Made by a program: the position numbers and the translations under genes. A stretch of DNA of 58,387 bases, taken from the IMG/VR virus record IMGVR_UViG_3300008122_000003, positions 1 through 58,387 of that record. One strand, written 5' to 3'. Shown one piece after another: positions 1,454 to 53,491 of this stretch. The stretch's first letter is position 1. Each line of letters begins with the position of its first letter. The DNA comes from a virus. Lineage: Duplodnaviria; Caudoviricetes. The notes beneath the pieces were generated by a model, which had not been told where the DNA came from, made no database searches, and saw only the letters and a program-made list of their open reading frames with translations.

Positions 1454-3883
1454 ATGGCGAACAATTTCAAAGAGTATGGGAAAACCCTGATAGAAAACGG
1501 GTTCAACATCCTCCCGATAGTCCCCCACGACGCCAAAGACCATTCCAGTCCCGGTAAAGCACCCGCACTGAAAGGCTGGCAGGAACATACCGCAACGGCC
1601 GACGACATCACCAAGTGGGCACGGTCACGCCAGCACTGCGGAATAGGGATAAACACGACACGCACACCTGCGGTTGATATCGATGTCCTGGACAGCGAGC
1701 TCTCTGACCAGATGGCGGAGTTCGTTATTGATCTGCTTGGCCAAGCGCCGCTGCGGATCGGACGTGCCCCGAAGAAGCTACTGGTCTACCGGGCCGAAAA
1801 ACCCTTTGCAAAGGTGAAATCTCACACTTGGATCAACGACGAAGGCGAGCGATGTGCTGTGGAGATCTTGGGCCACGGTCAGCAATTCGTGGCCTTTGGC
1901 ATCCACCCCGGTACCGGACAGCCCTTCACGTGGCCAACAGGGGATAACCCGCTTAACAACGACGCCAATTTCGACCTCAACGAGATAGACCTGCCAGCGG
2001 CCCGTGCCATTTGCGACGAGTTTGACGCTCAGGCCAAGGCTCGCGGCTGGGAGAAAGACCAGAAGGCCTCGCCGACACGCGGCCATGTGATCGGCAAGAA
2101 GCCGGAAAAGATGGTGGCGGACGCTGATTTTGGCGAGGACGCGGACCTTGTTGATGATTTGAGGGACACTTGGGACGGAACGGTCGAGGAATTGGCCGGA
2201 TTTCTTGACAAACTGCCCGCTGAGACCGAATACGGCAGGTGGGTCGCCGTTCTGGCAGCCCTGAAGGACGGGGAGAGAGAACCCGACGAGTTCAAGGAAC
2301 TGGCCCGCGAGTGGTCGTCCAAGGCCCCCAATTTCGATGAAGATTCGTTCGAGGATAAGTGGGAAAACGGCAATTTCGGCCGCTTGTCCTTGGACAAAGA
2401 CACGCCGGTGTCGAAGATCAACGACATCCGGAAGTGGGTCAAGTGGGCGCAGGATGACCAGAAAGCCCTTGAGAAGGTGATCCCGGGGCTTAACCGCGCC
2501 GAGACCCGAGCAACATGGGATGTGTGGCGCAAACGGCTCGGCAAACTGACTCTTAGCCCGTCCGTGGATGCTCAGGCGAAAGAAGCGGTGAACGCGGCAT
2601 GGGAACGCGTCAAGACAGAAGGGATCAACCTCTCCGAGTCCATCAACAAACTGGGGTTCCCCCACTTGTCGGACCGTGGCGGCCCCCTGAACACCGTCGA
2701 TAACCTCGGCTATCTGCTCTCGGAGTACGGGATCACTTGTCGATACGACGAAATCCGCAAGGAGCAGCGCATATCAGGGATCGGCAAGGATTTCAGCATG
2801 GACAACCGGGCCAACTGTGAGCTCTACGCAGTGGAGTCGCTGTGCAGCCTCAACACGTTGTCCACCGCGTCCACCGATAAGTTCTTGCGCACCATCGCCG
2901 ACCAGAACAGATACAACCCTGTGGAAGAATGGGTGATGAGCAAGCCCTGGGACGGGCGTTCCCGGCTCAAGGATCTGTATCGAACGGTGGAGAGCCCGAT
3001 GGACCTCCGGTTGAAAGAGACGTTGATCAGACGGTGGCTGGTGTCCGCGGTGGCCATGGGCATCGACGGCGGCAGCTCTCGCCGGCAAGCCCGCGGCGTC
3101 CTGGTGTTTGTCGGCGGCCAGTACATGGGTAAGACGCGCTGGGCCCTCCGGCTCGGGCCAGATGACCAGAACCTGGTGATGGAGGGCGTGGCGGTTGACC
3201 CTGACAACAAGGACACGGTGATCAACGCGCTCACCCACTGGATCTGTGAGCTGGGCGAACTGGATGCGACGTTCCGCAAGTCGGATATCGCCCGAATGAA
3301 GGCGTTTGTATCCCAGGGAACCGACAAGGTGCGAATGCCCTATGACCGCCGAGCGTCGGAATACGCCCGCCGCACGGTATTCTTCGCATCGGTGAACGAG
3401 CACAACTTCCTAGTGGACGAGACCGGCAACACGCGCTGGTGGACGATCCCGGTAACGGCGGTCAACCACGACCACGACATCGACATGCAGCAGCTGTGGG
3501 CGGAGGTCTACGCATTGTATCGCCGCGGCGAGCAGTGGTGGCTCACGGCCGAGGAAAACAAGGCGCTCATCGAGCACAACCGGGATCACGAGAATACTGA
3601 CCCGATCGAAGAGGCGATCCTTGACGATTTTGACTGGACCAGAACAGGTAAGAACGACGAAAAGGTGCGCATGACGGCCACCGAGGTGTTGAAGGTGATC
3701 GGCTACAAGAACCCGAGCAAGATGATGGCCCGAACGGTATCGAACATTCTACGGAGACTTGTCGGCGATCCGCGCAAGACCCACGGCGGGCGGCGAGTCT
3801 TCGACATGCCACCGCTATCAGGCAGCGCACCTGCAGGTTTCGACGACACCGGAATGCACGATGATGATGACGATGAGCTATAG
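1454..3883 (+). CDS. DNA primase/helicase (prim-pol N-terminus, PriCT-2, VirE-like helicase)
   Basis: GKAP..GW and DID prim-pol motifs; W..V..ALK PriCT-2; Walker A GGQYMGKT; RMPYDR, TGNTRWW VirE motifs; RBS GGAG before ATG 1454. Confidence 0.9.
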   Translation: MANNFKEYGKTLIENGFNILPIVPHDAKDHSSPGKAPALKGWQEHTATADDITKWARSRQHCGIGINTTRTPAVDIDVLDSELSDQMAEFVIDLLGQAPLRIGRAPKKLLVYRAEKPFAKVKSHTWINDEGERCAVEILGHGQQFVAFGIHPGTGQPFTWPTGDNPLNNDANFDLNEIDLPAARAICDEFDAQAKARGWEKDQKASPTRGHVIGKKPEKMVADADFGEDADLVDDLRDTWDGTVEELAGFLDKLPAETEYGRWVAVLAALKDGEREPDEFKELAREWSSKAPNFDEDSFEDKWENGNFGRLSLDKDTPVSKINDIRKWVKWAQDDQKALEKVIPGLNRAETRATWDVWRKRLGKLTLSPSVDAQAKEAVNAAWERVKTEGINLSESINKLGFPHLSDRGGPLNTVDNLGYLLSEYGITCRYDEIRKEQRISGIGKDFSMDNRANCELYAVESLCSLNTLSTASTDKFLRTIADQNRYNPVEEWVMSKPWDGRSRLKDLYRTVESPMDLRLKETLIRRWLVSAVAMGIDGGSSRRQARGVLVFVGGQYMGKTRWALRLGPDDQNLVMEGVAVDPDNKDTVINALTHWICELGELDATFRKSDIARMKAFVSQGTDKVRMPYDRRASEYARRTVFFASVNEHNFLVDETGNTRWWTIPVTAVNHDHDIDMQQLWAEVYALYRRGEQWWLTAEENKALIEHNRDHENTDPIEEAILDDFDWTRTGKNDEKVRMTATEVLKVIGYKNPSKMMARTVSNILRRLVGDPRKTHGGRRVFDMPPLSGSAPAGFDDTGMHDDDDDEL

Positions 3884-10475: not shown

Positions 10476-11046
10476 AGCGGCGACCGTCAAGGAGGGCTTA
10501 AACGCCCTCCGCAATAACCAGATTGACAAGAAATCGGAAGAGATGATCTTCCAAGGCTGCACCCAGTCGCAGCTGGTCAAGATCTTCCGAATGGACAGGC
10601 GGGACATCGCCGCCAAACTTGCAGAATCCCCCATTACCCCGTGCGGCGCCCGTGCGGGGTATCCGATTTACGCCATCCACGAGGTGGCGCCGTACCTCGT
10701 CAAGCCGCTCTATGACATCGAGACCTACCTCAAGCGGATGCACCACAACGACCTGCCGAAACACCTGTCCAAGGAGTTCTGGGCGGGCATGCGGGCAAAG
10801 CAGGAGTACCAGCTCAAAGAAGGCGAGCTGTGGCCCACGGAGAAGGTCATCGGGGTGATGGGCGACGTATTCAAGCGCCTGCGCATGTCGATGCTACTGG
10901 TACAGGACGCGGTTGAGCGCGAGCATATGCTGACGGCGCAGCAGCGCGACAAGATCAGCTCGCTCATCGACGGGGCCTTGAACGACATGGCGGATGATCT
11001 GGTCGAGCAGTTCAAAGAGCCGGAGGCGGAGGACGATGAGCTATAA
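10468..11046 (+). CDS. terS: Terminase small subunit (DUF1441-like)
   Basis: Directly upstream of TerL; N-terminal HTH, DLP..L.KEFW motif of Chi-like TerS. Confidence 0.85.
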   Translation: MAKAATVKEGLNALRNNQIDKKSEEMIFQGCTQSQLVKIFRMDRRDIAAKLAESPITPCGARAGYPIYAIHEVAPYLVKPLYDIETYLKRMHHNDLPKHLSKEFWAGMRAKQEYQLKEGELWPTEKVIGVMGDVFKRLRMSMLLVQDAVEREHMLTAQQRDKISSLIDGALNDMADDLVEQFKEPEAEDDEL

Positions 11047-13786
11047 GTCGCTTCGAGAGATAGTCCGCACCCTGGCCGAGAACTTGAGGCCGCCAGAGCG
11101 GATGACGGTGGCCAAGGCAGCCGAGAAGTACCGGTTCATCAACCAGCCAGGGGCCTACGTCGGTCAGTGGGACAACAGCACAGCCCCTTACATGGTCGAG
11201 CCGATGAACACCTTCGCGTCTCGCGACTATTCGAACATGGCATTCGCAGGTCCCGCACAAAGCGGCAAACCGATCTGGGTAGAAACACCAGTGGCCACGC
11301 CGTCAGGCTGGACGACCATGGGTGAAATCGAACCAGGGGATGTGATTTTCAGCGAGAAAGGCGTCCCGACAACGGTCACCTATGTAACCCCAGTTTTCCA
11401 AGATCGGGAGTGCTACCGCATTGAGTTCGATGATGGTTCGGAGATCATCGCGGATGGCGTCCACCGCTGGGAGGTCTACTACACCACGGAAGACGACTTG
11501 GCCCGTGCGGTAGTTACCACCGATGAAATATTCCAGTCGCAAAACCACAAAGACTATCTGATCCGGACAACCAAGCCATTGGCCCTCCCCCCATCACCCT
11601 TAGTGGCCACTGTGGTTGTCGCGCATGCAGTCAGTACCGGGGCACCCCTTCCGATGAGGCTCCTGAGAGGGTCTATCGAACAGCGCCGCGAGGCGTTCGA
11701 AGCATTGGCGGAAGGACGCGATGGGGTCATCGAGGTCAAAGCATCCACGCGAGCGCAGGCCCTATCCTTCCAAGAACTGGCCGTGTCGCTAGGGTATCGC
11801 GCAAAAATGAAAGGGACGATGGTTGAGGTGGACACGAGCCCGTGGCATTGGCGGACCATAGCCCGAGTAGTCCAGGTTCAATCCGTGCCTGTCCGGTGCA
11901 TATCGGTCAGCAACGAGAGTCACCTGTTCCTGGTCGGCGAGCAGATGGTGCCTACCCATAACACCGACGCCATCGTAATCAACGGCCTCGCTTACTCGGT
12001 GAAGGTCGACCCGATGGACACCATGCTGTTCTGTCCGACCAACTCGGCCGCCCGCGACTTCTCGATCCGACGGGTTGACCGTCTGCACCGGCACTCGCCT
12101 GAGATCGGCGCCATGCTGCTGAAGGGGCGAGACGCGGACAACGTGATGGACAAGCACTACGTGACCGGCATGATCTTCACGATCAGCTGGCCGTCCGTCA
12201 CCGAGCTGGCAGGTAGACCGGTCGGCCGCATCATCATGACCGACTTCGACAGGATGCCGATCGACGTGGGCGGCGACGGTAACGCCTTCGACTTGGCGAC
12301 CAAGCGGACAACTACGTTCGGCACCTTCGCCATGTGTGCGGCTGAGAGCTCGCCGTCTCACCCAATCCTTGACTCGAAGTGGATCCCGCGCAGCCCGCAT
12401 GAGGCGCCACCCTGCACCGGGATCATGGCGCTCTACAACCGGGGCGACCGCCGCCGCTGGCAGTGGCCATGCCTGCACTGCTGGACGTGGTTCGAAGGTA
12501 AGTTCGACCTGCTCGTCTGGGAAGACAAGCACGACTCCAACCTGGAGAAGGCATCGACGGCCCACATGGCCTGCCCGCACTGCGGAACGATGATCCATCC
12601 GGACGAGCGCCACGAGATGCAACAGTGGGGCATGTGGGTACCGGAAGGCATGCACGTCAACAACAAGGGGCAGCTCGCAGGCAAGCGACCCCGCACCACC
12701 TTCGCCAGCTACTGGCTGCGCGGCACAGCGGCGGCGTTTGTGACGTGGCCGAAGCTGGTCCTGACCTACCTCGATGCACACGACGAGCACGAGCGCACCG
12801 GATCTGAGGAATCGCTCAAGAAATTCTGGAACAACGACATGGGGGAGCCCTATGTCCCCAAGATGACCGACAGCATCCGTCTGCCAGAGGCGATGAAGTC
12901 AAAGGCGGTCGAGCTACCAGAGCAGATGGTGCCGGAGGGTGTCAGGTTCATTGTGGGCAACGTGGACGTGCAGAAAAACGCATTCGTGGTGCAGGTGCAC
13001 GGCATCATGCCCGGGCGCCCGCACGACCTTGTGCTGATCGACCGGTTCAACATCACTAAGTCAAAGCGCGTGGATGAGGACGGGGATCCGGAACTGGTCA
13101 AACCCAACGCCTACCTGGACGACTGGCAGCTCATCAAAGAGCAGGTCATGGACAAGGAGTATGAGCTGGGCGACGGGTCAGGCCGGATGATGAAGGTGAA
13201 ATTCACGACCTGTGACTCGGGCGGTCAGGTCGGTGTTACCGATCGAGCATATGACTTCTACCGCTGGCTGCGAGAGCGCGGTGAGAACGGCCGATTCATT
13301 CTGGTGAAGGGCGACCGCAACCCGTCCGCCCCCCGGACACGGATCTCCTACCCAGACAGTCAGAAGAAAGACAACAAGTCGGCGGCCCGTGGCGACATTC
13401 CGCTGCTCATGTTCAACCCGAACATGTTGAAGGACGCCCTAAACGGCAGACTGGATGTCATCGAGCCAGGGCGCGGCATGTTCCACTATCCGAAGTGGTT
13501 GCCGGACTCATGGTATGCAGAGATGTGTGCCGAGATCCGAACAGACAAGGGCTGGGAGAACCCCCAGAAACTGCGAAACGAGGCGTGGGACTTGAGTTAC
13601 TATTGCCTTGGGGTATGCATATCCCCGAAACTACTCAACGTTGAGATGATAGATTGGGAAAATCCGCCAGCGTGGGCGGATGTTTGGGACAAGAACGCCC
13701 TGGTGCGCAGTCGAGAAGATCCGACCCGTTTCATGGCGCAGCCCAAGACCATTGATTTCGGTAAATTTGCGGAGGCGCTAGCATAA
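11036..13786 (+). CDS. terL: Terminase large subunit (lambda GpA-like), intein-containing
   Basis: TAPYMVEPM, Walker A GPAQSGK|T split by intein, CPHCG Zn motifs, VDVQ nuclease, RNEAWD. Confidence 0.95.
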   Translation: MSYKSLREIVRTLAENLRPPERMTVAKAAEKYRFINQPGAYVGQWDNSTAPYMVEPMNTFASRDYSNMAFAGPAQSGKPIWVETPVATPSGWTTMGEIEPGDVIFSEKGVPTTVTYVTPVFQDRECYRIEFDDGSEIIADGVHRWEVYYTTEDDLARAVVTTDEIFQSQNHKDYLIRTTKPLALPPSPLVATVVVAHAVSTGAPLPMRLLRGSIEQRREAFEALAEGRDGVIEVKASTRAQALSFQELAVSLGYRAKMKGTMVEVDTSPWHWRTIARVVQVQSVPVRCISVSNESHLFLVGEQMVPTHNTDAIVINGLAYSVKVDPMDTMLFCPTNSAARDFSIRRVDRLHRHSPEIGAMLLKGRDADNVMDKHYVTGMIFTISWPSVTELAGRPVGRIIMTDFDRMPIDVGGDGNAFDLATKRTTTFGTFAMCAAESSPSHPILDSKWIPRSPHEAPPCTGIMALYNRGDRRRWQWPCLHCWTWFEGKFDLLVWEDKHDSNLEKASTAHMACPHCGTMIHPDERHEMQQWGMWVPEGMHVNNKGQLAGKRPRTTFASYWLRGTAAAFVTWPKLVLTYLDAHDEHERTGSEESLKKFWNNDMGEPYVPKMTDSIRLPEAMKSKAVELPEQMVPEGVRFIVGNVDVQKNAFVVQVHGIMPGRPHDLVLIDRFNITKSKRVDEDGDPELVKPNAYLDDWQLIKEQVMDKEYELGDGSGRMMKVKFTTCDSGGQVGVTDRAYDFYRWLRERGENGRFILVKGDRNPSAPRTRISYPDSQKKDNKSAARGDIPLLMFNPNMLKDALNGRLDVIEPGRGMFHYPKWLPDSWYAEMCAEIRTDKGWENPQKLRNEAWDLSYYCLGVCISPKLLNVEMIDWENPPAWADVWDKNALVRSREDPTRFMAQPKTIDFGKFAEALA
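11270..11962 (+). mobile_element. Class 3 mini-intein (231 aa) in the TerL Walker A motif
   Basis: Starts P-IWVETPVATPSGWTTMGEI (block A), H.W (block B), VRCISV (block F), PTHN/T (block G); removal restores GPAQSGKT. Confidence 0.9.
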
Positions 13787-37166: not shown

Positions 37167-37405
37167 TCGAACGGTTGAAAGCGTGGGCCCTCTGGGCCCT
37201 TTTCGGTATTGGGGCCGTCCTGTTCGCACTGGTTAAGGGCCGACGGGACGGCCGGCAGCAGGCCGAACAGGATCAACAGGCAGACGTGGCGCAGGACGCA
37301 GCGAAGGCGTCGAAGGAGATACGAGATGTGCGGACGGAAGTGGACAGCAAGGCTGCTGGGGCTGCTGATCGGCAGCTCCGTGATGAGTGGATGCGCGACG
37401 AATGA
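37163..37405 (+). CDS. Inner-membrane spanin (Rz-like)
   Basis: N-terminal TM helix plus coiled coil; follows endolysin. Confidence 0.75.
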   Translation: MIERLKAWALWALFGIGAVLFALVKGRRDGRQQAEQDQQADVAQDAAKASKEIRDVRTEVDSKAAGAADRQLRDEWMRDE

Positions 37406-37550
37406 GCTGGTGGTTGAGCCGTCGTTCTGTGCGGTCAGCGGGCCCATCATGATCGGACGAGAGGACATGCTCACCGACCAGACGGCCCGCCTCATCCTGA
37501 ACCACAATCTGACCGGCAAAACGCTATGTGGTTGGCGGGGAAAGAAATAG
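37326..37550 (+). CDS. Outer-membrane spanin lipoprotein (Rz1-like)
   Basis: Signal peptide with lipobox MSGC; overlaps Rz in another frame. Confidence 0.75.
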   Translation: MCGRKWTARLLGLLIGSSVMSGCATNELVVEPSFCAVSGPIMIGREDMLTDQTARLILNHNLTGKTLCGWRGKK

Positions 37551-50850: not shown

Positions 50851-50880
50851 TTGACACGACGGCGGCATGGCGGCAATACT
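50851..50880 (+). promoter_or_regulatory. Rightward promoter TTGACA-N18-AATACT with AT-rich UP-like element
   Basis: Perfect -35; back-to-back with leftward promoter; no RBS-led ORF follows. Confidence 0.6.
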
Positions 50881-50886
50881 TGCCTC

Positions 50887-51280
50887 ATCCAAACAGGATA
50901 TCCCCGACAAGGATAGAAAGGAGAGTGATCCTATCTCAAGCTGGTGGCATTCCAGTAAGCTCGAAGCCATGTCGAACGACAGCGCGACGAGCACACAACT
51001 GAGGTTGCATTGGGCGTGGTGGCGTTACCACTCTAAACAACGCGGCTTTCAAGGCTTCCATGAAGTTGGAGTCCTCGGGCCACTCCGGTGCAACCTCAGT
51101 TGTGGTGAAAGAGCTTTACCGACAGACCCTGTCAGCGGGATGACACAGGGCGCTTGCATCAAGGTGAAAAGGGTAGACGTGGACGTGCCGTGATCCGCAA
51201 CGGTTGGAAACCACGCACAAGGGCCGCCAAACGGCAGAAGATGCCATCGCAACAAGAAAGCCCTCTTACGAGGGCTTTTT
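50887..51280 (+). ncRNA. Putative ~390-nt structured non-coding RNA of unknown family
   Basis: Own promoter and terminator; perfect 16-bp long-range helix 50994-51009/51089-51104; many nested hairpins. Confidence 0.7.
51257..51280. terminator. Bidirectional terminator
   Basis: AAAGCCCTC-TTAC-GAGGGCTTT-TT. Confidence 0.85.
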
Positions 51281-51294
51281 CCTATCCGCAGTTC

Positions 51295-51600
51295 TCACTT
51301 CTTACTCAACGCGCAGTAGGCGATGATCTTCACCGCCAGGCGCTCGGCCAATACCATCTGCTGGGGGTTGAACTGCCCCGACTGCATGATCCCGACCAGG
51401 CCCATCAAGTTGCCCATGGCCTTCAGGTCGGCCATGGCGGACTGCATGATCTGCTGGGGGTTATGCCCTTCCTTGATGATGGACACCGCCCTGTCTCGCA
51501 AACCATCCGCCACGTCGATCGCCGGTCCGTACTGGGTATCAGTCGGCAGGGCTTGCGGCGGCTGCAGGTCGCTTGCTTGCAACTGCATGCTCTGCTCCAT
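51295..51600 (-). CDS. Hypothetical Gln/Met-rich helical protein
   Basis: RBS GAGG; two NPQQ repeats. Confidence 0.65.
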   Translation of the reverse strand: MEQSMQLQASDLQPPQALPTDTQYGPAIDVADGLRDRAVSIIKEGHNPQQIMQSAMADLKAMGNLMGLVGIMQSGQFNPQQMVLAERLAVKIIAYCALSKK

Positions 51601-52078
51601 CCTCGTCCTCCTGCGTCACGGTGGTGTCTGTCTCGACAGGGTACGGGCGCACCGGCTCCCGCTCGACGCTCGCTCCCGGCTGACCGGCAGGTGCCTGGCC
51701 GATACCGAGGTAGCCCTGCACGAACGCCTCGCCGAAGTTGCCGCCCTCCCGCACGTAGACGTGCATGTTCATCACGTCGCGGGGGCCCATCAGCATCGGG
51801 TCGAAGTCCATGTTGTGGAACCCGATATAGACGATGTCCATCGGCTTTTCGAGGGTGCCCGGGTGCGGCATCATGGTGCCGGCCACGTAGTAGGCCCAGA
51901 GATCCTTGGACACCTGGACTTTACTGCGCACTGACGGGGCGACACGACCGTGGTCAAACACCACTGACCCATCCTCGGCGTTCTTGCGCAGTGCGTATAT
52001 GGCACCGTTGACCATGAAGCGGTCGGGGGGCGATCGCTTGAGCTGCGTGACACCCATTCCTTGCATCAGGTTGTTCAT
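51539..52078 (-). CDS. Hypothetical protein
   Basis: ATG overlaps the stop of the 27-aa ORF. Confidence 0.7.
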   Translation of the reverse strand: MNNLMQGMGVTQLKRSPPDRFMVNGAIYALRKNAEDGSVVFDHGRVAPSVRSKVQVSKDLWAYYVAGTMMPHPGTLEKPMDIVYIGFHNMDFDPMLMGPRDVMNMHVYVREGGNFGEAFVQGYLGIGQAPAGQPGASVEREPVRPYPVETDTTVTQEDEDGAEHAVASKRPAAAASPAD

Positions 52079-52158
52079 CCGTTAATCCATCCCATTGGTC
52101 TGAAGAGGAAATACTCCGCGAACCAGTTCGCGAGCACGTTGATTATGAAGTTAATCAT
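52075..52158 (-). CDS. 27-aa hydrophobic peptide MINFIINVLANWFAEYFLFRPMGWING
   Basis: Not in ORF track; RBS GAGGA; overlaps both neighbours. Confidence 0.6.
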   Translation of the reverse strand: MINFIINVLANWFAEYFLFRPMGWING

Positions 52159-52435
52159 GATCGTTGTCCTCTTTTGGGCAGGTCATTTTGTGCGCGGCGC
52201 ACAAACAAGCGGCGGCCAGGTCCACCAGCTCCTTGATGATCTGCGGGTGGGTGCCGCTGGCCCGCATCTCTTTGAGCTCGGCGTGCTCCATCTCGATGAT
52301 GTCGAACAGGCCATGCCTCTGTCCCATGTACGGGGCCCACGTGAGAGGGGGCTTCTCGGCTCGCTCCTCGATCTCGTGCAGGGTGCGGGCGTAGCTGTCA
52401 TGCTTTTTACCGTGGATAACCAGAATGCGTTTCAT
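52151..52435 (-). CDS. Hypothetical all-alpha protein, weak MazG-like pattern
   Basis: RBS AGGAG; IIEME..EL.E ... KELVDLAA. Confidence 0.65.
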   Translation of the reverse strand: MKRILVIHGKKHDSYARTLHEIEERAEKPPLTWAPYMGQRHGLFDIIEMEHAELKEMRASGTHPQIIKELVDLAAACLCAAHKMTCPKEDNDHD

Positions 52436-52448
52436 GCTCTTCTCCTGT

Positions 52449-52477
52449 AAAAACGGGTGCCCGTTTCCGGACACCCG
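52449..52477 (-). terminator. Intra-operon terminator after the CCCET gene
   Basis: CGGGTGTCCG-GAAA-CGGGCACCCG-TTTTT. Confidence 0.8.
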
Positions 52478-52531
52478 CTGATCGTTATTGTTTGGCCTTC
52501 GCCTTAACCGGAGCTGGTGCCGGGGCAGGCG

Positions 52532-53191
52532 TTACACCTTTAAAGGCAGGTGGGCCAGCACGGTCTGGATGATCTGCTGGGTCTGGGCGGCTTGGCTGCC
52601 CGCCAGGTAGATCTGGCTTTCCAGTTGGGCGTTCTTGGACTTGCTGTCGCACAGCTGGGTCTGCAGGTCAGTGATCAGGTTCTGCTGGATCAGCTGACGG
52701 GTTGCCGCGCCTTCAGCGGCGATCGACTTCTGAGTCTCGCAGCAGCACTGGGACATCTGGGTCTGAAGGCTGTTGATGCTGGCTTGCATGGCGAAGCGGT
52801 TGTCGTTAGCACTGGACACGATTGCCGTGTTCAGACCGGCGAAGCCTTGGGTCAAGGCGTTGGTCTGGGTGGCCTGGGACTGCAGGGTTTGGAAACCCAG
52901 GTCAGTGATCCCGGCGTTCAGGCCGGTGTAGACGTTGGACAACCCGCTACACAACGCCATGTTGGTGCCGTTCTGGCCTTGGACTACCTGCAGGCCGACG
53001 TTGTTCACCGCTTCCAGGATCGGGGCGGTGGAGAGGGCTTCGGCGGCAACCACACCTGCGCCTGCACCGCGGCCACCCGGACCCCAGCCATTGCCGAACC
53101 AGGAACCAACGAATGCACCCAGGGCCGCAGCACCGCCAGAGCCCCAGCCAGAATCACCGGTGGAGACCGGCAGCATGGTCATATCAGTCAT
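52532..53191 (-). CDS. Gly-rich N-terminus / long coiled-coil 'CCCET' protein
   Basis: RBS GGAG; GAAALGAFVGSWFGNGWG, heptad Q/N/A/T-rich body, QCCCETQ. Confidence 0.85.
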   Translation of the reverse strand: MTDMTMLPVSTGDSGWGSGGAAALGAFVGSWFGNGWGPGGRGAGAGVVAAEALSTAPILEAVNNVGLQVVQGQNGTNMALCSGLSNVYTGLNAGITDLGFQTLQSQATQTNALTQGFAGLNTAIVSSANDNRFAMQASINSLQTQMSQCCCETQKSIAAEGAATRQLIQQNLITDLQTQLCDSKSKNAQLESQIYLAGSQAAQTQQIIQTVLAHLPLKV

Positions 53192-53257
53192 ACAATCTCT
53201 CCATGAGAAAAAGGGCGTGACACTATTGCCACGCCATGATCGTATGACTGTCGATCA

Positions 53258-53491
53258 CTATGCGGTGATCGCCTTGTCCGCTTTTGGTCCCGTTTCGACC
53301 AGATCTGGATTACTCCAGATTATGTCCTCCTTTATCGTGAGTACCCCTCGCATTGAACAGTTGCTGCACTTCAGTGTCTGCAACCGCTCTACGTGATGAT
53401 CATCTCGACTCGGCGTGATGGATTTCGCCACGTGCACAGCATGCCCGCAAGCCGGGCAAGTGCGTTTCGGCTGTCGTGCTTTGGTCTCCAT
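53258..53491 (-). CDS. Zn-ribbon protein
   Basis: CPAC...CSNC; RBS AGGAAG. Confidence 0.6.
   Translation of the reverse strand: METKARQPKRTCPACGHAVHVAKSITPSRDDHHVERLQTLKCSNCSMRGVLTIKEDIIWSNPDLVETGPKADKAITA

What the first reader, a model, noticed from the sequence alone, without database searches (positions are those of the whole stretch)
51295..53235. Five-gene leftward operon built around a fusion-peptide-like, coiled-coil 'CCCET' protein
Seen: a 219-aa protein with a Gly/Trp-rich hydrophobic N-terminal segment (GAAALGAFVGSWFGNGWG, loosely like the influenza HA2 fusion peptide), then ~150 aa of Q/N/T/A heptads with QCCCETQ. A terminator follows, then four overlapping genes: a 94-aa helical protein, a 27-aa hydrophobic peptide, a 179-aa protein and a 101-aa NPQQ-repeat protein. 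The internal terminator implies the first product is made in excess, as expected of a structural polymer. The operon is far from virion genes and converges on the ncRNA. From memory (unverified), CCC-motif coiled-coil genes with small Q/M-rich partners recur in unrelated phages without a known function. Inference: an uncharacterised membrane-active or fibre-forming system.
Basis: partly seen in the sequence, partly recalled or inferred. Interest (0 to 1): 0.85.

Follow-up and report, generated by a model that had tools for sequence, protein, structure and literature searches.

The report
Mobile phage cassette of unknown function
A real gene cassette, built around a glycine-rich, triple-cysteine helical protein, recurs as a unit in many unrelated phages, matches no characterised system, and its function is still unknown.

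Summary
The five ORFs, the motifs and the internal terminator are all present as described. The window is a whole siphophage-like genome, 85% identical in DNA to Aeromonas phage phiWae15.

- **Conservation.** The set A (219 aa), B (94 aa), C (179 aa), D (101 aa) recurs in the same order in at least six phage lineages. It sits in a different genome context each time.
- **The 27-aa peptide.** It is conserved in the three closest sub-lineages.
- **Terminator after A.** A terminator-like hairpin follows A in 31 of 68 distinct loci, against 42 of 401 random windows.
- **Protein A.** It has a Gly/aromatic, moderately hydrophobic N-terminal segment. A charge-poor helical rod follows, with about 3.65-residue periodicity (hendecad-like, not heptads). 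CCC, ATR and LCDxK are invariant or nearly so.
- **Protein B.** It looks like a MazG-type all-alpha pyrophosphatase fold.
- **Proteins C and D.** C folds confidently but has no structural neighbour. D is a small helical protein.
- **Database matches.** Nothing matches Pfam, NCBIfam, PADLOC or any named PHROG.

The HA2 resemblance is compositional only (E 0.6-2.7).

Best reading (confidence about 0.35): a mobile accessory module. Its abundant product A associates with the host membrane and self-assembles or cross-links, helped by low-level partners. A virion-fibre role and a nucleotide-linked role remain open.

The parts
53214..53235 (-). Terminator-like hairpin (9-bp stem, then a T-run) 22 nt upstream of A's ATG. 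It could be a terminator of the upstream 77-aa gene or the 5' stem of the A transcript.
   Evidence: Listed by the consensus scan. The hairpin and ~10 nt before it are conserved in phiWae15, while sequence further upstream differs.
52532..53191 (-). Gene A, 219 aa. It has a conserved N-terminus, a Gly/aromatic segment (GSWFGNG), a charge-poor Q/N/T/A helical rod, and CCCET, ATR and LCDxK.
   Evidence: ORF. PHROG phrog_9288, unknown function, E 1.9e-42. Invariant columns in 36 sequences. 4.4% charged residues in 56-145. Predicted helices 18-29, 56-97 and 105-213 at low confidence.
52449..52478 (-). Intrinsic-terminator-like hairpin plus TTTTT between A and B, followed directly by B's ribosome-binding site.
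   Evidence: Read. -21.9 kcal/mol. The same feature occurs in 31 of 68 distinct loci against 42 of 401 random windows. A terminator is annotated at the same place in phage Sasha.
52151..52435 (-). Gene B, 94 aa: a helical protein with PxTW and ExxE ... ELxD motifs, resembling the MazG-like all-alpha NTP pyrophosphatase fold.
   Evidence: phrog_9157, unknown function, E 9e-22. Atlas structural neighbours MazG/PRA-PH, TM 0.55-0.68. PDB 2p06, E 0.011. The homologue in phage SeppeHuegi is annotated 'putative pyrophosphatase'.
52075..52158 (-). 27-aa hydrophobic peptide, overlapping B's end by 8 nt and C's start by ATGA.
   Evidence: ORF. Against phiWae15 there are 3 synonymous and 1 conservative changes. 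Similar 24-26-aa peptides sharing an N-[VI]-L-A-N core sit at the same place in L005/L007 and L008/L009.
51539..52078 (-). Gene C, 179 aa: a confidently folded alpha/beta core (residues ~20-125) with a disordered acidic/Pro-rich tail. No known fold neighbour.
   Evidence: phrog_8329, unknown function. AF2 mean pLDDT 75.5, with the 10-residue blocks over residues 21-110 averaging 91-96. Foldseek PDB best E 0.095. VIA-align wide best Z 3.8. BFVD hits only to uncharacterised phage proteins.
51295..51600 (-). Gene D, 101 aa (start uncertain): a small helical protein. It has two NPQQ motifs in this lineage only.
   Evidence: phrog_7239, unknown function, E 1.3e-21. Alignments.
51251..51280 (.). Hairpin with T-runs on both strands that ends the cassette. 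It probably also ends a convergent plus-strand transcript.
   Evidence: Read. It forms the 3' stem in the fold. Hairpins after D are also found in eiAU and Yersinia phage X1, and one is annotated in Sasha.

Best explanation
The region is a self-contained, horizontally mobile accessory cassette of lytic phages.

Shown: gene order A, (small peptide), B, C, D. The cassette is flanked and internally divided by terminator-like hairpins. It occurs in different genome contexts in unrelated phages.

Inferred mechanism:
- A is the main, most abundant product.
- Its conserved Gly/aromatic N-terminal segment sits in or on the cytoplasmic membrane of the infected cell, as a glycine-zipper or fusion-peptide-like interfacial anchor rather than a classical transmembrane helix.
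- Its long, almost uncharged hendecad-type helical rod self-associates.
- The invariant Cys cluster (CCC plus the Cys of LCDxK, with extra C-terminal Cys in many relatives) cross-links subunits or binds a metal.
- The hydrophobic peptide, the MazG-like protein B, the novel-fold protein C and the helical protein D are made at lower levels downstream of the attenuating terminator. They act as assembly or enzymatic partners.
- The module is dispensable for virion building. It most likely alters the host envelope during lytic growth, for example by excluding superinfecting phage or by stabilising or remodelling the membrane.
For: **Co-conservation.**
- Among the window plus 78 viral-contig loci with an A relative, the patterns were ABCD 31 (window included), ABC 5, AC 7, AB 9, ABD 1 and A alone 26. 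Wherever partners were detected they lay downstream of A on the same strand, in the order B, C, D. Loci were not de-duplicated.
- The nine 'AB' loci carry divergent C and D. hhalign gives C versus c14 probability 76%, E 2.3e-5, and D versus c13 probability 30%, E 5.6e-4.

**Different lineages and contexts.** The cassette is present in phiWae15, eiAU, Hanrivervirus KarlJaspers, the myophage Yersinia X1, Sashavirus and Seuratvirus.

**Phage restriction.**
- A is found in 93 and C in 135 of 50,697 phage records.
- Only 20 loci turned up in 185,579 species genomes, and all are MAG contigs.

**Attenuator.** A hairpin follows A in 31 of 68 loci against 42 of 401 controls, Fisher p 7e-11. The loci are related, so they are not independent.

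**Membrane hints.**
- The 27-aa hydrophobic peptide is conserved.
- The equivalent N-terminal segment is more hydrophobic in low-GC relatives.
- There are weak glycine-zipper hits: Pfam Rick_17kDa_Anti E 0.004 for L054 and SlyB E 0.12.

**Not in the structural module.** The window's virion genes lie at 11-36 kb on the other strand.

**Not needed for lysis.** The phage has its own endolysin and Rz-like spanin.

**Possibly dispensable.** A is split into two ORFs in the viable isolate SeppeHuegi, while B is intact and C and D are annotated there at the usual lengths.
Against: - No localisation, expression or virion data exist.
- The N-terminal segment falls below the usual transmembrane threshold (recalled as about 1.6): the best 19-residue Kyte-Doolittle mean is 1.29 in the window and the median is 1.14 over 120 relatives.
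- Some family members lack that segment altogether but keep the CCC core (P0253, P0261).
- A rod this poor in charge is more typical of extracellular or virion proteins than of cytoplasmic coiled coils (my own knowledge).
- In four lineages the cassette directly follows tail-fibre or tail genes.
- No sigma-70-like promoter was found upstream of A in the window, KarlJaspers or X1. Only a weak 9-of-12 match was found in eiAU.
- In the window a hairpin also precedes A.
- In the low-GC phage group only A is demonstrably homologous. Its neighbours are a different conserved set.
Confidence: 0.35

Rival explanations
1. A is a virion-associated fibre, decoration or ejection protein. It would be a cross-linked helical rod whose Gly/aromatic tip contacts the host membrane at infection. 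B, C, D and the peptide would be assembly factors that are not packaged.
For: - The rod composition is Q/N/T/S/A-rich with 4.4% charged residues.
- Conserved Cys would form disulfides outside the cell.
- The cassette lies directly after tail or tail-fibre genes in eiAU, KarlJaspers, SeppeHuegi and L056, and after a head-morphogenesis gene in L059 and L068 (that gene's identity is my reading of its sequence, not a tool result).
- High expression of one product fits a structural protein.
Against: - No match to any tail, fibre or head PHROG or to a solved fibre.
- In the window, X1 and Sasha the cassette is not in the tail module.
- The cassette is carried by few of the phage records searched (A in 93, C in 135 of 50,697).
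- A is apparently broken in a viable isolate.
Confidence: 0.2
2. The cassette acts in the cytoplasm on nucleotides or nucleic acids. B would be the catalytic core, a MazG-like pyrophosphatase that removes a nucleotide or alarmone, possibly as counter-defence. A would be a scaffold or condensate-forming partner.
For: - B resembles the MazG/PRA-PH fold, and BASEL annotators independently named it 'putative pyrophosphatase'.
- B relatives carry Arg-rich or His-rich N-terminal extensions.
- In the window the cassette heads a leftward block of DNA-metabolism genes.
- Neighbours in X1, KarlJaspers and eiAU include ssb, recombination and methylase genes.
Against: - B reaches no Pfam MazG or PRA-PH threshold.
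- Only the ExxE half of the metal motif is invariant.
- Nothing matches PADLOC. That library holds defence proteins, not counter-defence proteins.
- The reading does not explain the hydrophobic peptide or A's charge-poor composition.
Confidence: 0.2
3. A is a lysis-related membrane-fusion or disruption factor, like a spanin or a class I fusion subunit, acting at the end of infection.
For: - The layout is a Gly-rich hydrophobic N-terminus followed by a long helical rod with conserved Cys. Rz-type spanins use intermolecular disulfides (my own knowledge).
- HA2 chains recur among the top weak PDB hits, and those hits start at HA2 chain residues 3-9, the N-terminal end where (recalled) the fusion peptide lies.
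Against: - The HA2 hits are not significant (E 0.6-2.7).
- There is no C-terminal anchor, and I saw no lipobox partner when reading the ORFs.
- The phage already encodes an endolysin and an Rz-like spanin elsewhere.
- The cassette is not next to lysis genes in any annotated relative.
Confidence: 0.08
4. The genes are unrelated hitch-hikers that merely travel together, with no common function.
For: No physical or functional link between the products has been shown.
Against: The same order and tight or overlapping junctions are kept at 20-40% protein identity across several phage families.
Confidence: 0.03

Closest known systems
MazG-like all-alpha NTP pyrophosphohydrolases (MazG, PRA-PH/HisE, AF_0060 = PDB 2p06), compared with protein B only
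   Same: Small helical protein of about 90-120 aa. It has an ExxE motif and then E-L-x-D/H about 16 residues later. Atlas structural neighbours are MazG/PRA-PH clusters with TM 0.55-0.68. The profile hit to 2p06 has E 0.011.
   Different: It reaches no Pfam or NCBIfam model. The second acidic motif is not invariant. It has a conserved PxTW motif and His- or Arg-rich N-terminal tails. It is always embedded in the A-B-C-D cassette. Part of the 2p06 score comes from its His tag aligning to B's His-rich region.
Class I viral fusion subunits (influenza HA2 type)
   Same: A Gly-rich, moderately hydrophobic N-terminal segment with aromatic residues, followed by a long helical rod with conserved Cys. 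HA2 chains appear among the weak PDB hits, and those hits start at HA2 chain residues 3-9, the N-terminal end.
   Different: E-values of 0.6-2.7 show no homology. There is no C-terminal membrane anchor and no receptor-binding partner. Periodicity is about 3.65 rather than 3.5. It is encoded by a tailed phage.
Spanins (Rz-type i-spanin, T1 gp11 u-spanin)
   Same: A phage-encoded helical protein with an N-terminal hydrophobic segment and conserved Cys that could form intermolecular disulfides.
   Different: No PHROG spanin hit for A. I saw no lipoprotein partner. It is not in the lysis cassette, and the window has its own Rz-like spanin at 37209-37550. The rod is nearly uncharged.
Phage morons and accessory membrane proteins (for example lambda bor/lom, HK97 gp15, P22 SieA; recalled, not tested)
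   Same: An accessory unit bounded by terminators, inserted at module boundaries, variable in position, and carried by few of the phage records searched.
   Different: It has four to five co-conserved genes instead of one. No promoter of its own was identified. It is found almost only in phage genomes and phage-like MAG contigs, not in cultured bacterial genomes, so prophage-expressed exclusion is unlikely.
Glycine-zipper membrane proteins (SlyB/Pcp, Pfam Rick_17kDa_Anti)
   Same: A Gly-x-x-x-Gly-rich hydrophobic stretch, with weak hits (Pfam E 0.004 for relative L054; SlyB E 0.12).
   Different: The hits are below the curated cut-off (17.4 versus 24.2 bits). There is no lipobox, a single segment instead of two, and a long helical rod attached.

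Membership tests
MazG-like all-alpha NTP pyrophosphohydrolase superfamily (protein B) | Match to a curated family model (Pfam MazG PF03819, PRA-PH PF01503 or relatives) above threshold | tested here: not met
   The Pfam scan of B at E up to 1 returned only LHH at E 0.71. NCBIfam returned nothing.
MazG-like all-alpha NTP pyrophosphohydrolase superfamily (protein B) | Compact four-helix fold like MazG/PRA-PH | tested here: inconclusive
   The Atlas's own model (pLDDT 0.79) has MazG and PRA-PH clusters among its structural neighbours, TM 0.55-0.68. All are marked 'under the bar'. The profile hit to PDB 2p06 has E 0.011. I made no model of B myself.
MazG-like all-alpha NTP pyrophosphohydrolase superfamily (protein B) | Metal-binding ExxE ... 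ExxD acidic motif (recalled definition) | tested here: inconclusive
   ExxE is invariant in 22 sequences (E50, E53). The second motif is E-L-x-D in most, E-L-x-H or absent in others, and is not among the invariant columns.
MazG-like all-alpha NTP pyrophosphohydrolase superfamily (protein B) | Nucleotide pyrophosphatase activity | not testable with these tools
   Needs an enzyme assay.
Class I viral fusion protein (HA2-like), protein A | Significant sequence or profile similarity | tested here: not met
   Five distinct HA2 sequences were hit at E 0.62-2.7 with the 36-sequence profile, and E 1.1 with the 5-sequence profile.
Class I viral fusion protein (HA2-like), protein A | Heptad-repeat trimeric coiled coil and a C-terminal membrane anchor | tested here: not met
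   Periodicity peaks at 3.65 in 56-97 and at 3.65-3.7 in 105-145. Reading the C-terminal sequence, I see no hydrophobic stretch there (no hydropathy scan of that part was run). The oligomeric state was not determined.
Rz-type spanin, protein A | Classical N-terminal transmembrane domain | tested here: not met
   The best 19-residue Kyte-Doolittle mean is 1.29 (window) and the median is 1.14 (120 relatives), below the usual ~1.6 (the threshold is recalled).
Rz-type spanin, protein A | Location in the lysis cassette with an o-spanin lipoprotein partner | tested here: not met
   The endolysin and Rz-like spanin lie at 36.4-37.6 kb. I saw no lipobox in B, C, D or the peptide (reading).
Virion fibre or tail needle, protein A | Similarity to known tail, fibre or head families or to solved fibre structures | tested here: inconclusive
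   There was no hit in PHROGs or in PDB sequences. The monomer model was too poor (pLDDT 45) for a fold search.
Virion fibre or tail needle, protein A | Presence in purified virions | not testable with these tools
   No virion proteome of a cassette-bearing phage could be read. The PY100 paper is not held. The eiAU paper has no mass spectrometry.
Moron-type autonomous accessory unit | Terminators bounding the unit | tested here: met
   The window has hairpins at 53214-53235 and about 51251-80. Hairpins follow D in eiAU and X1. Terminators are annotated in Sasha.
Moron-type autonomous accessory unit | Own promoter | tested here: inconclusive
   No sigma-70-like site was found upstream of A in the window, KarlJaspers or X1. 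One 9-of-12 site was found in eiAU. The scan covers sigma-70 consensus only.
Moron-type autonomous accessory unit | Variable genomic context among unrelated phages | tested here: met
   The cassette lies after tail genes (eiAU, KarlJaspers, SeppeHuegi), in a region of small genes between terminase and portal (Sasha), beside small divergent genes (X1), and at the head of the leftward early-like block (window).

The most novel reading that the evidence does not exclude
A defines a new class of phage-encoded membrane-insertion or membrane-remodelling proteins shared by phages of Gram-negative and Gram-positive hosts. It would combine a fusion-peptide-like Gly/aromatic tip with a hendecad helical rod locked by a triple-Cys cluster. 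It would be made in excess over dedicated partners (a tiny membrane peptide, a MazG-fold protein and a protein with a new fold), and together they would reshape or fuse host membranes during lytic infection.
Probability: 0.1. Interest if true: 0.85.

Novelty: categorically new. Interest (0 to 1): 0.6.

Why it matters
The cassette is a clearly delimited multi-gene unit that moves between phage families. Its carriers include widely used E. coli, Salmonella, Shigella and Yersinia phages, several of them in the BASEL collection.

No part of it, except perhaps B's fold, resembles anything characterised. The family is sizeable: 669 clusters at 50% identity.

Because it sits in phages that grow on E. 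coli K-12, its function can be tested directly by deletion, fractionation and virion proteomics. A new membrane-acting or self-assembling phage system would interest researchers working on phage-host biology and on protein materials.

If it turns out to be an ordinary accessory fibre, the value is a better annotation of four PHROG families of unknown function.

Tried and rejected
**Family scans.**
- Pfam, PHROGs, PADLOC and NCBIfam gave no named family for A, B, C or D, or for the partner genes of distant relatives.

**Fold searches with the C model.**
- Foldseek PDB best E 0.095.
- VIA-align wide best Z 3.8, no Z of 5 or more among 48,161 chains.
- BFVD returned only uncharacterised phage relatives.

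**Structure of A.**
- The A monomer model was too poor (pLDDT 44.8), so I ran no fold search on it.

**Complex prediction.**
- Complex prediction with A+B+C(1-135)+D(25-101), A as partner, returned 'no answer' (score 0.00, controls not run). This is neither for nor against binding.

**Search for fused forms and B relatives.**
- The search for longer fused forms of A found none (weak evidence by the tool's own note).
- The B profile search found only 9 short unnamed relatives.

**Profile comparisons with the low-GC partners.**
- D versus c4/c11: E 0.13 over 17 columns.
- B versus c5/c6/c10: nothing.
- Single-sequence comparisons were weak.
- I therefore do not claim that the low-GC partners are homologues.

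**RNA and sequencing runs.**
- Rfam and tRNA scans of the window found nothing.
- The look-up of sequencing runs listed no RNA holder.

**Literature.**
- Six searches and passages of five papers found no description of the cassette: PMC3025963, PMC8583763, PMC3391216, PMC8590004 and PMC6714547.
- The searches were not exhaustive.
- The Sfin-1 virion proteome was not usable, because I did not test whether Sfin-1 carries the cassette.
- Supplements are closed. BASEL or 9NA-like phage supplements with virion proteomes could bear on the virion question.

**Ideas considered and dropped.**
- Colicin-like translocation domain.
- RiPP precursor.
- R-body or gas-vesicle proteins.
- PspA/ESCRT-III.
- None had any tool support.
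Full report
**What is there.**

The window is a complete siphophage-like genome.
- On the plus strand lie replication genes at 1.4-10.4 kb. Terminase, portal, protease, major head and tail genes lie at 11-36 kb. An endolysin and an Rz-like spanin lie at 36.4-37.6 kb.
- On the minus strand, 38.5-53.5 kb, lies a block with polynucleotide kinase, methyltransferases and exonucleases.
- The region of the finding is 85.1% identical in DNA to Aeromonas phage phiWae15, the only megablast hit among 50,697 phage records.

All five ORFs of the finding are present:
- A: 52532-53191, 219 aa.
- B: 52151-52435, 94 aa.
- A 27-aa peptide: 52075-52158.
- C: 51539-52078, 179 aa.
- D: 51295-51600, 101 aa.

Their junctions overlap by 8 nt, 4 nt (ATGA) and 62 nt. 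Against phiWae15, synonymous changes outnumber or equal non-synonymous ones in every gene: A 46/24, B 26/19, peptide 3/1, C 44/11, D 19/18. So they are coding.

**Transcription signals.**

Three hairpin-plus-T-run elements are present.
- One lies 22 nt before A, at 53214-53235. It is conserved in phiWae15, although the T-run there is shorter.
- One lies between A and B, at about 52449-52478. My script gives -21.9 kcal/mol, but the tool's consensus scan did not list it.
- One lies after D, at about 51251-51280, with T-runs on both strands.

The element after A is not a local accident. With one fixed criterion (stem-loop of -8 kcal/mol or better, then four or more T), it is found after A in 31 of 68 distinct loci. 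The control was 42 of 401 random same-strand windows of the same loci (odds ratio 7.2, Fisher p 7e-11). The loci are related, so the p-value overstates independence.

The annotators of Salmonella phage Sasha independently marked terminators after the A and D homologues.

I found no convincing sigma-70 promoter in front of A in the window, KarlJaspers or X1. There is one 9-of-12 match in eiAU.

**Conservation as a unit.**

All four larger proteins belong to PHROG families of unknown function: 9288, 9157, 8329 and 7239. Homologues of all four lie in the same order in these phages:
- Edwardsiella phage eiAU (gp08-11).
- The T1-like Hanrivervirus KarlJaspers (bas06_0034-31).
- Yersinia phage X1, a myophage relative of PY100 (X1_27-24).
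- Sashavirus Sasha (gp07-10).
- Seuratvirus SeppeHuegi.

Identities to the window proteins are 19-53%.

Among the window plus 78 IMG/VR loci that encode an A relative, local profile searches found ABCD in 31, ABC in 5, AC in 7, AB in 9, ABD in 1 and A alone in 26. Loci were not de-duplicated.

The 'AB' loci are GC-rich phages whose next two genes are divergent C and D. hhalign gives probability 76%, E 2.3e-5, and probability 30%, E 5.6e-4.

By tblastn, A occurs in 93 and C in 135 of 50,697 phage records.

The A profile finds 669 clusters at E up to 1e-3, and 146 at 1e-10, among 1.84 billion representatives.

In 185,579 species genomes there are only 20 loci, all on MAG contigs of gut Clostridia, Bacilli, Alphaproteobacteria and Bacteroidota. 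So the family is essentially restricted to phages.

The neighbours differ from lineage to lineage:
- Tail fibres in eiAU, KarlJaspers and SeppeHuegi.
- A region of small genes between terminase and portal in Sasha.
- Small divergent genes in X1.
- The head of the leftward block in the window.

The cassette therefore moves horizontally as a unit.

**The 27-aa peptide.**

It is conserved in phiWae15, where it is 29 aa and unannotated. Similar 24-26-aa hydrophobic peptides with a shared N-[VI]-L-A-N core lie between B and C in two further sub-lineages, L005/L007 and L008/L009. In the enterobacterial lineages B and C abut and no such ORF exists.

**Protein A.**

The following are invariant or nearly so in 36 diverse sequences:
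- The extreme N-terminus (M-x-D-M-x-L-L-P).
- GSWFGNG, QGQ and QGFxGxN.
- CCC, ATR and LCDxK.

The Gly/aromatic segment is only moderately hydrophobic. The best 19-residue Kyte-Doolittle mean within the first 90 residues is 1.29 in the window, and the median is 1.14 over 120 relatives. In low-GC relatives the equivalent stretch is a short, clearly hydrophobic run flanked by Trp and Gly.

Residues 56-145 hold 4.4% charged residues and 34% Q+N+T.

The hydrophobic periodicity peaks at 3.65. Remote members carry plain 11-residue repeats, and one has three CCC motifs. The rod is therefore hendecad-type rather than heptad-type.

Some remote members lack the Gly-rich N-terminus but keep the core CCC-E/D ... 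G-x-x-T-R-x-L.

AlphaFold2 on 36 sequences gives three helices (18-29, 56-97, 105-213) at pLDDT 45. This is uninformative beyond 'helical'.

Profile searches against PDB sequences give only weak hits:
- A tobamovirus coat protein: whole-sequence E 0.004, domain E 6.
- SlyB: E 0.12.
- Five haemagglutinin HA2 chains: E 0.62-2.7. These alignments start at HA2 chain residues 3-9, the N-terminal end where (recalled) the fusion peptide lies.

It is not evidence of kinship.

**Proteins B, C and D.**

B:
- It has an invariant PxTW and ExxE, and in most members E-L-x-D.
- Its Atlas neighbours by features and by structure include MazG and PRA-PH clusters.
- The best PDB profile hit is AF_0060 (2p06), E 0.011. 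Part of that score comes from the His tag aligning to B's His-rich region.
- BASEL annotators called the SeppeHuegi homologue a 'putative pyrophosphatase' (homology probability 99.9%).
- B does not reach any Pfam threshold.
- Many B relatives have His-rich or Arg-rich N-terminal extensions.

C:
- It folds confidently, with the 10-residue blocks over residues 21-110 averaging pLDDT 91-96.
- It has no neighbour in the PDB by Foldseek or VIA-align.
- In BFVD it matches only uncharacterised phage proteins, including one from Salmonella phage 9NA.

D:
- It is a small helical protein. Its two NPQQ motifs are peculiar to this lineage.

**Distant relatives.**

In low-GC phage contigs A sits in another conserved set, in this order:
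- A ~145-aa protein (phrog_21718).
- A ~70-aa Q/N/P-rich helical protein.
- A.
- A ~130-165-aa protein.
- An Arg/Gly/Tyr-rich helical protein.
- A small protein of phrog_3754 (unknown function; it looks papain-like to me by eye), or one with an HExxH motif and a sub-threshold SprT-like Pfam hit.

Apart from a short NPxQ-type motif, I could not show that these are homologues of B-D.

**What it most likely does.**

Shown:
- It is a mobile, phage-restricted, multi-gene unit.
- One product is separated from the rest by a recurrent terminator-like element.
- That product has a Gly/aromatic segment, a charge-poor hendecad rod and invariant cysteines.
- A small hydrophobic peptide accompanies it.
- One partner has a MazG-like fold.
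- The window has a separate lysis cassette.

Inferred:
- A is made in excess.
- A associates with the membrane through its N-terminal segment and self-assembles or cross-links.
- The other products are low-level partners.
- The module changes the infected cell's envelope.

I put this at about 0.35. The rivals are a virion fibre or ejection protein with its assembly factors (0.2), a cytoplasmic nucleotide-linked function centred on B (0.2), and a lysis or fusion role (0.08).

In the viable isolate SeppeHuegi the A gene is split into two ORFs, while B is intact and C and D are annotated there at the usual lengths. If this is not a sequencing error, A is dispensable for growth in the laboratory. 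That fits an accessory role.

**Comparison with what is known, and novelty.**

No component is a demonstrable member of a characterised family. B is the nearest, being MazG-fold-like.

The families themselves are catalogued as PHROGs of unknown function. What is new is the recognition of the unit, its anatomy and its spread. The function is still open, and it is directly testable in E. coli K-12 phages.

Noticed in passing
window 50851-51290, plus strand: A promoter-like site (TTGACA, 18 nt, AATACT; 10 of 12) at 50851-50880 is followed by a ~400-nt stretch. This stretch folds far better than shuffles (-163.7 kcal/mol, z -4.9, 0 of 100 shuffles as good) and ends at the two-way hairpin shared with the cassette. 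There is no Rfam match. The region lies outside the megablast match to phiWae15, which starts at about window 51250.
   Followed up: partly
window 53258-53491, minus strand: A 77-aa four-Cys zinc-ribbon protein is the first gene of the leftward block, just upstream of the cassette. It has weak, sub-threshold hits to Lar restriction-alleviation models (Pfam E 0.011, TIGR03655 E 0.012).
   Followed up: no
L103 (Escherichia phage SeppeHuegi) 2209-3045: The A homologue is split into an N-terminal ORF ending at 2586 and a C-terminal ORF at 2725-3045, while B is intact and C and D are annotated at the usual lengths. This is either a broken accessory gene in a viable phage or a sequencing error.
   Followed up: partly
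window 10994-13786, plus strand: The large-terminase ORF is unusually long (930 aa). It matches the terminase family in three separate stretches, and its N-terminal ~165 residues hit other families. This could be a fusion or an inserted element.
   Followed up: no
L056-L082 (low-GC viral contigs): The A relatives (phrog_16490) sit in a different conserved gene set. It includes an Arg/Gly/Tyr-rich protein and a small protein that is either of phrog_3754 (unknown function, papain-like by eye) or carries an HExxH motif. A terminator-like hairpin again follows A in several of these loci.
   Followed up: partly
proteins P0233, P0253, P0261 (remote A relatives): One member carries three CCC motifs. 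Two lack the Gly-rich N-terminus and instead carry runs of plain 11-residue repeats before the CCC core.
   Followed up: no
B homologues in L026, L035, L041, L043, L052 and others: B homologues in these viral-contig loci have long His-rich N-terminal tails. GC-rich phages have Arg-rich tails with a shared R-R-x-S-x-G-R-Y-like motif instead.
   Followed up: no
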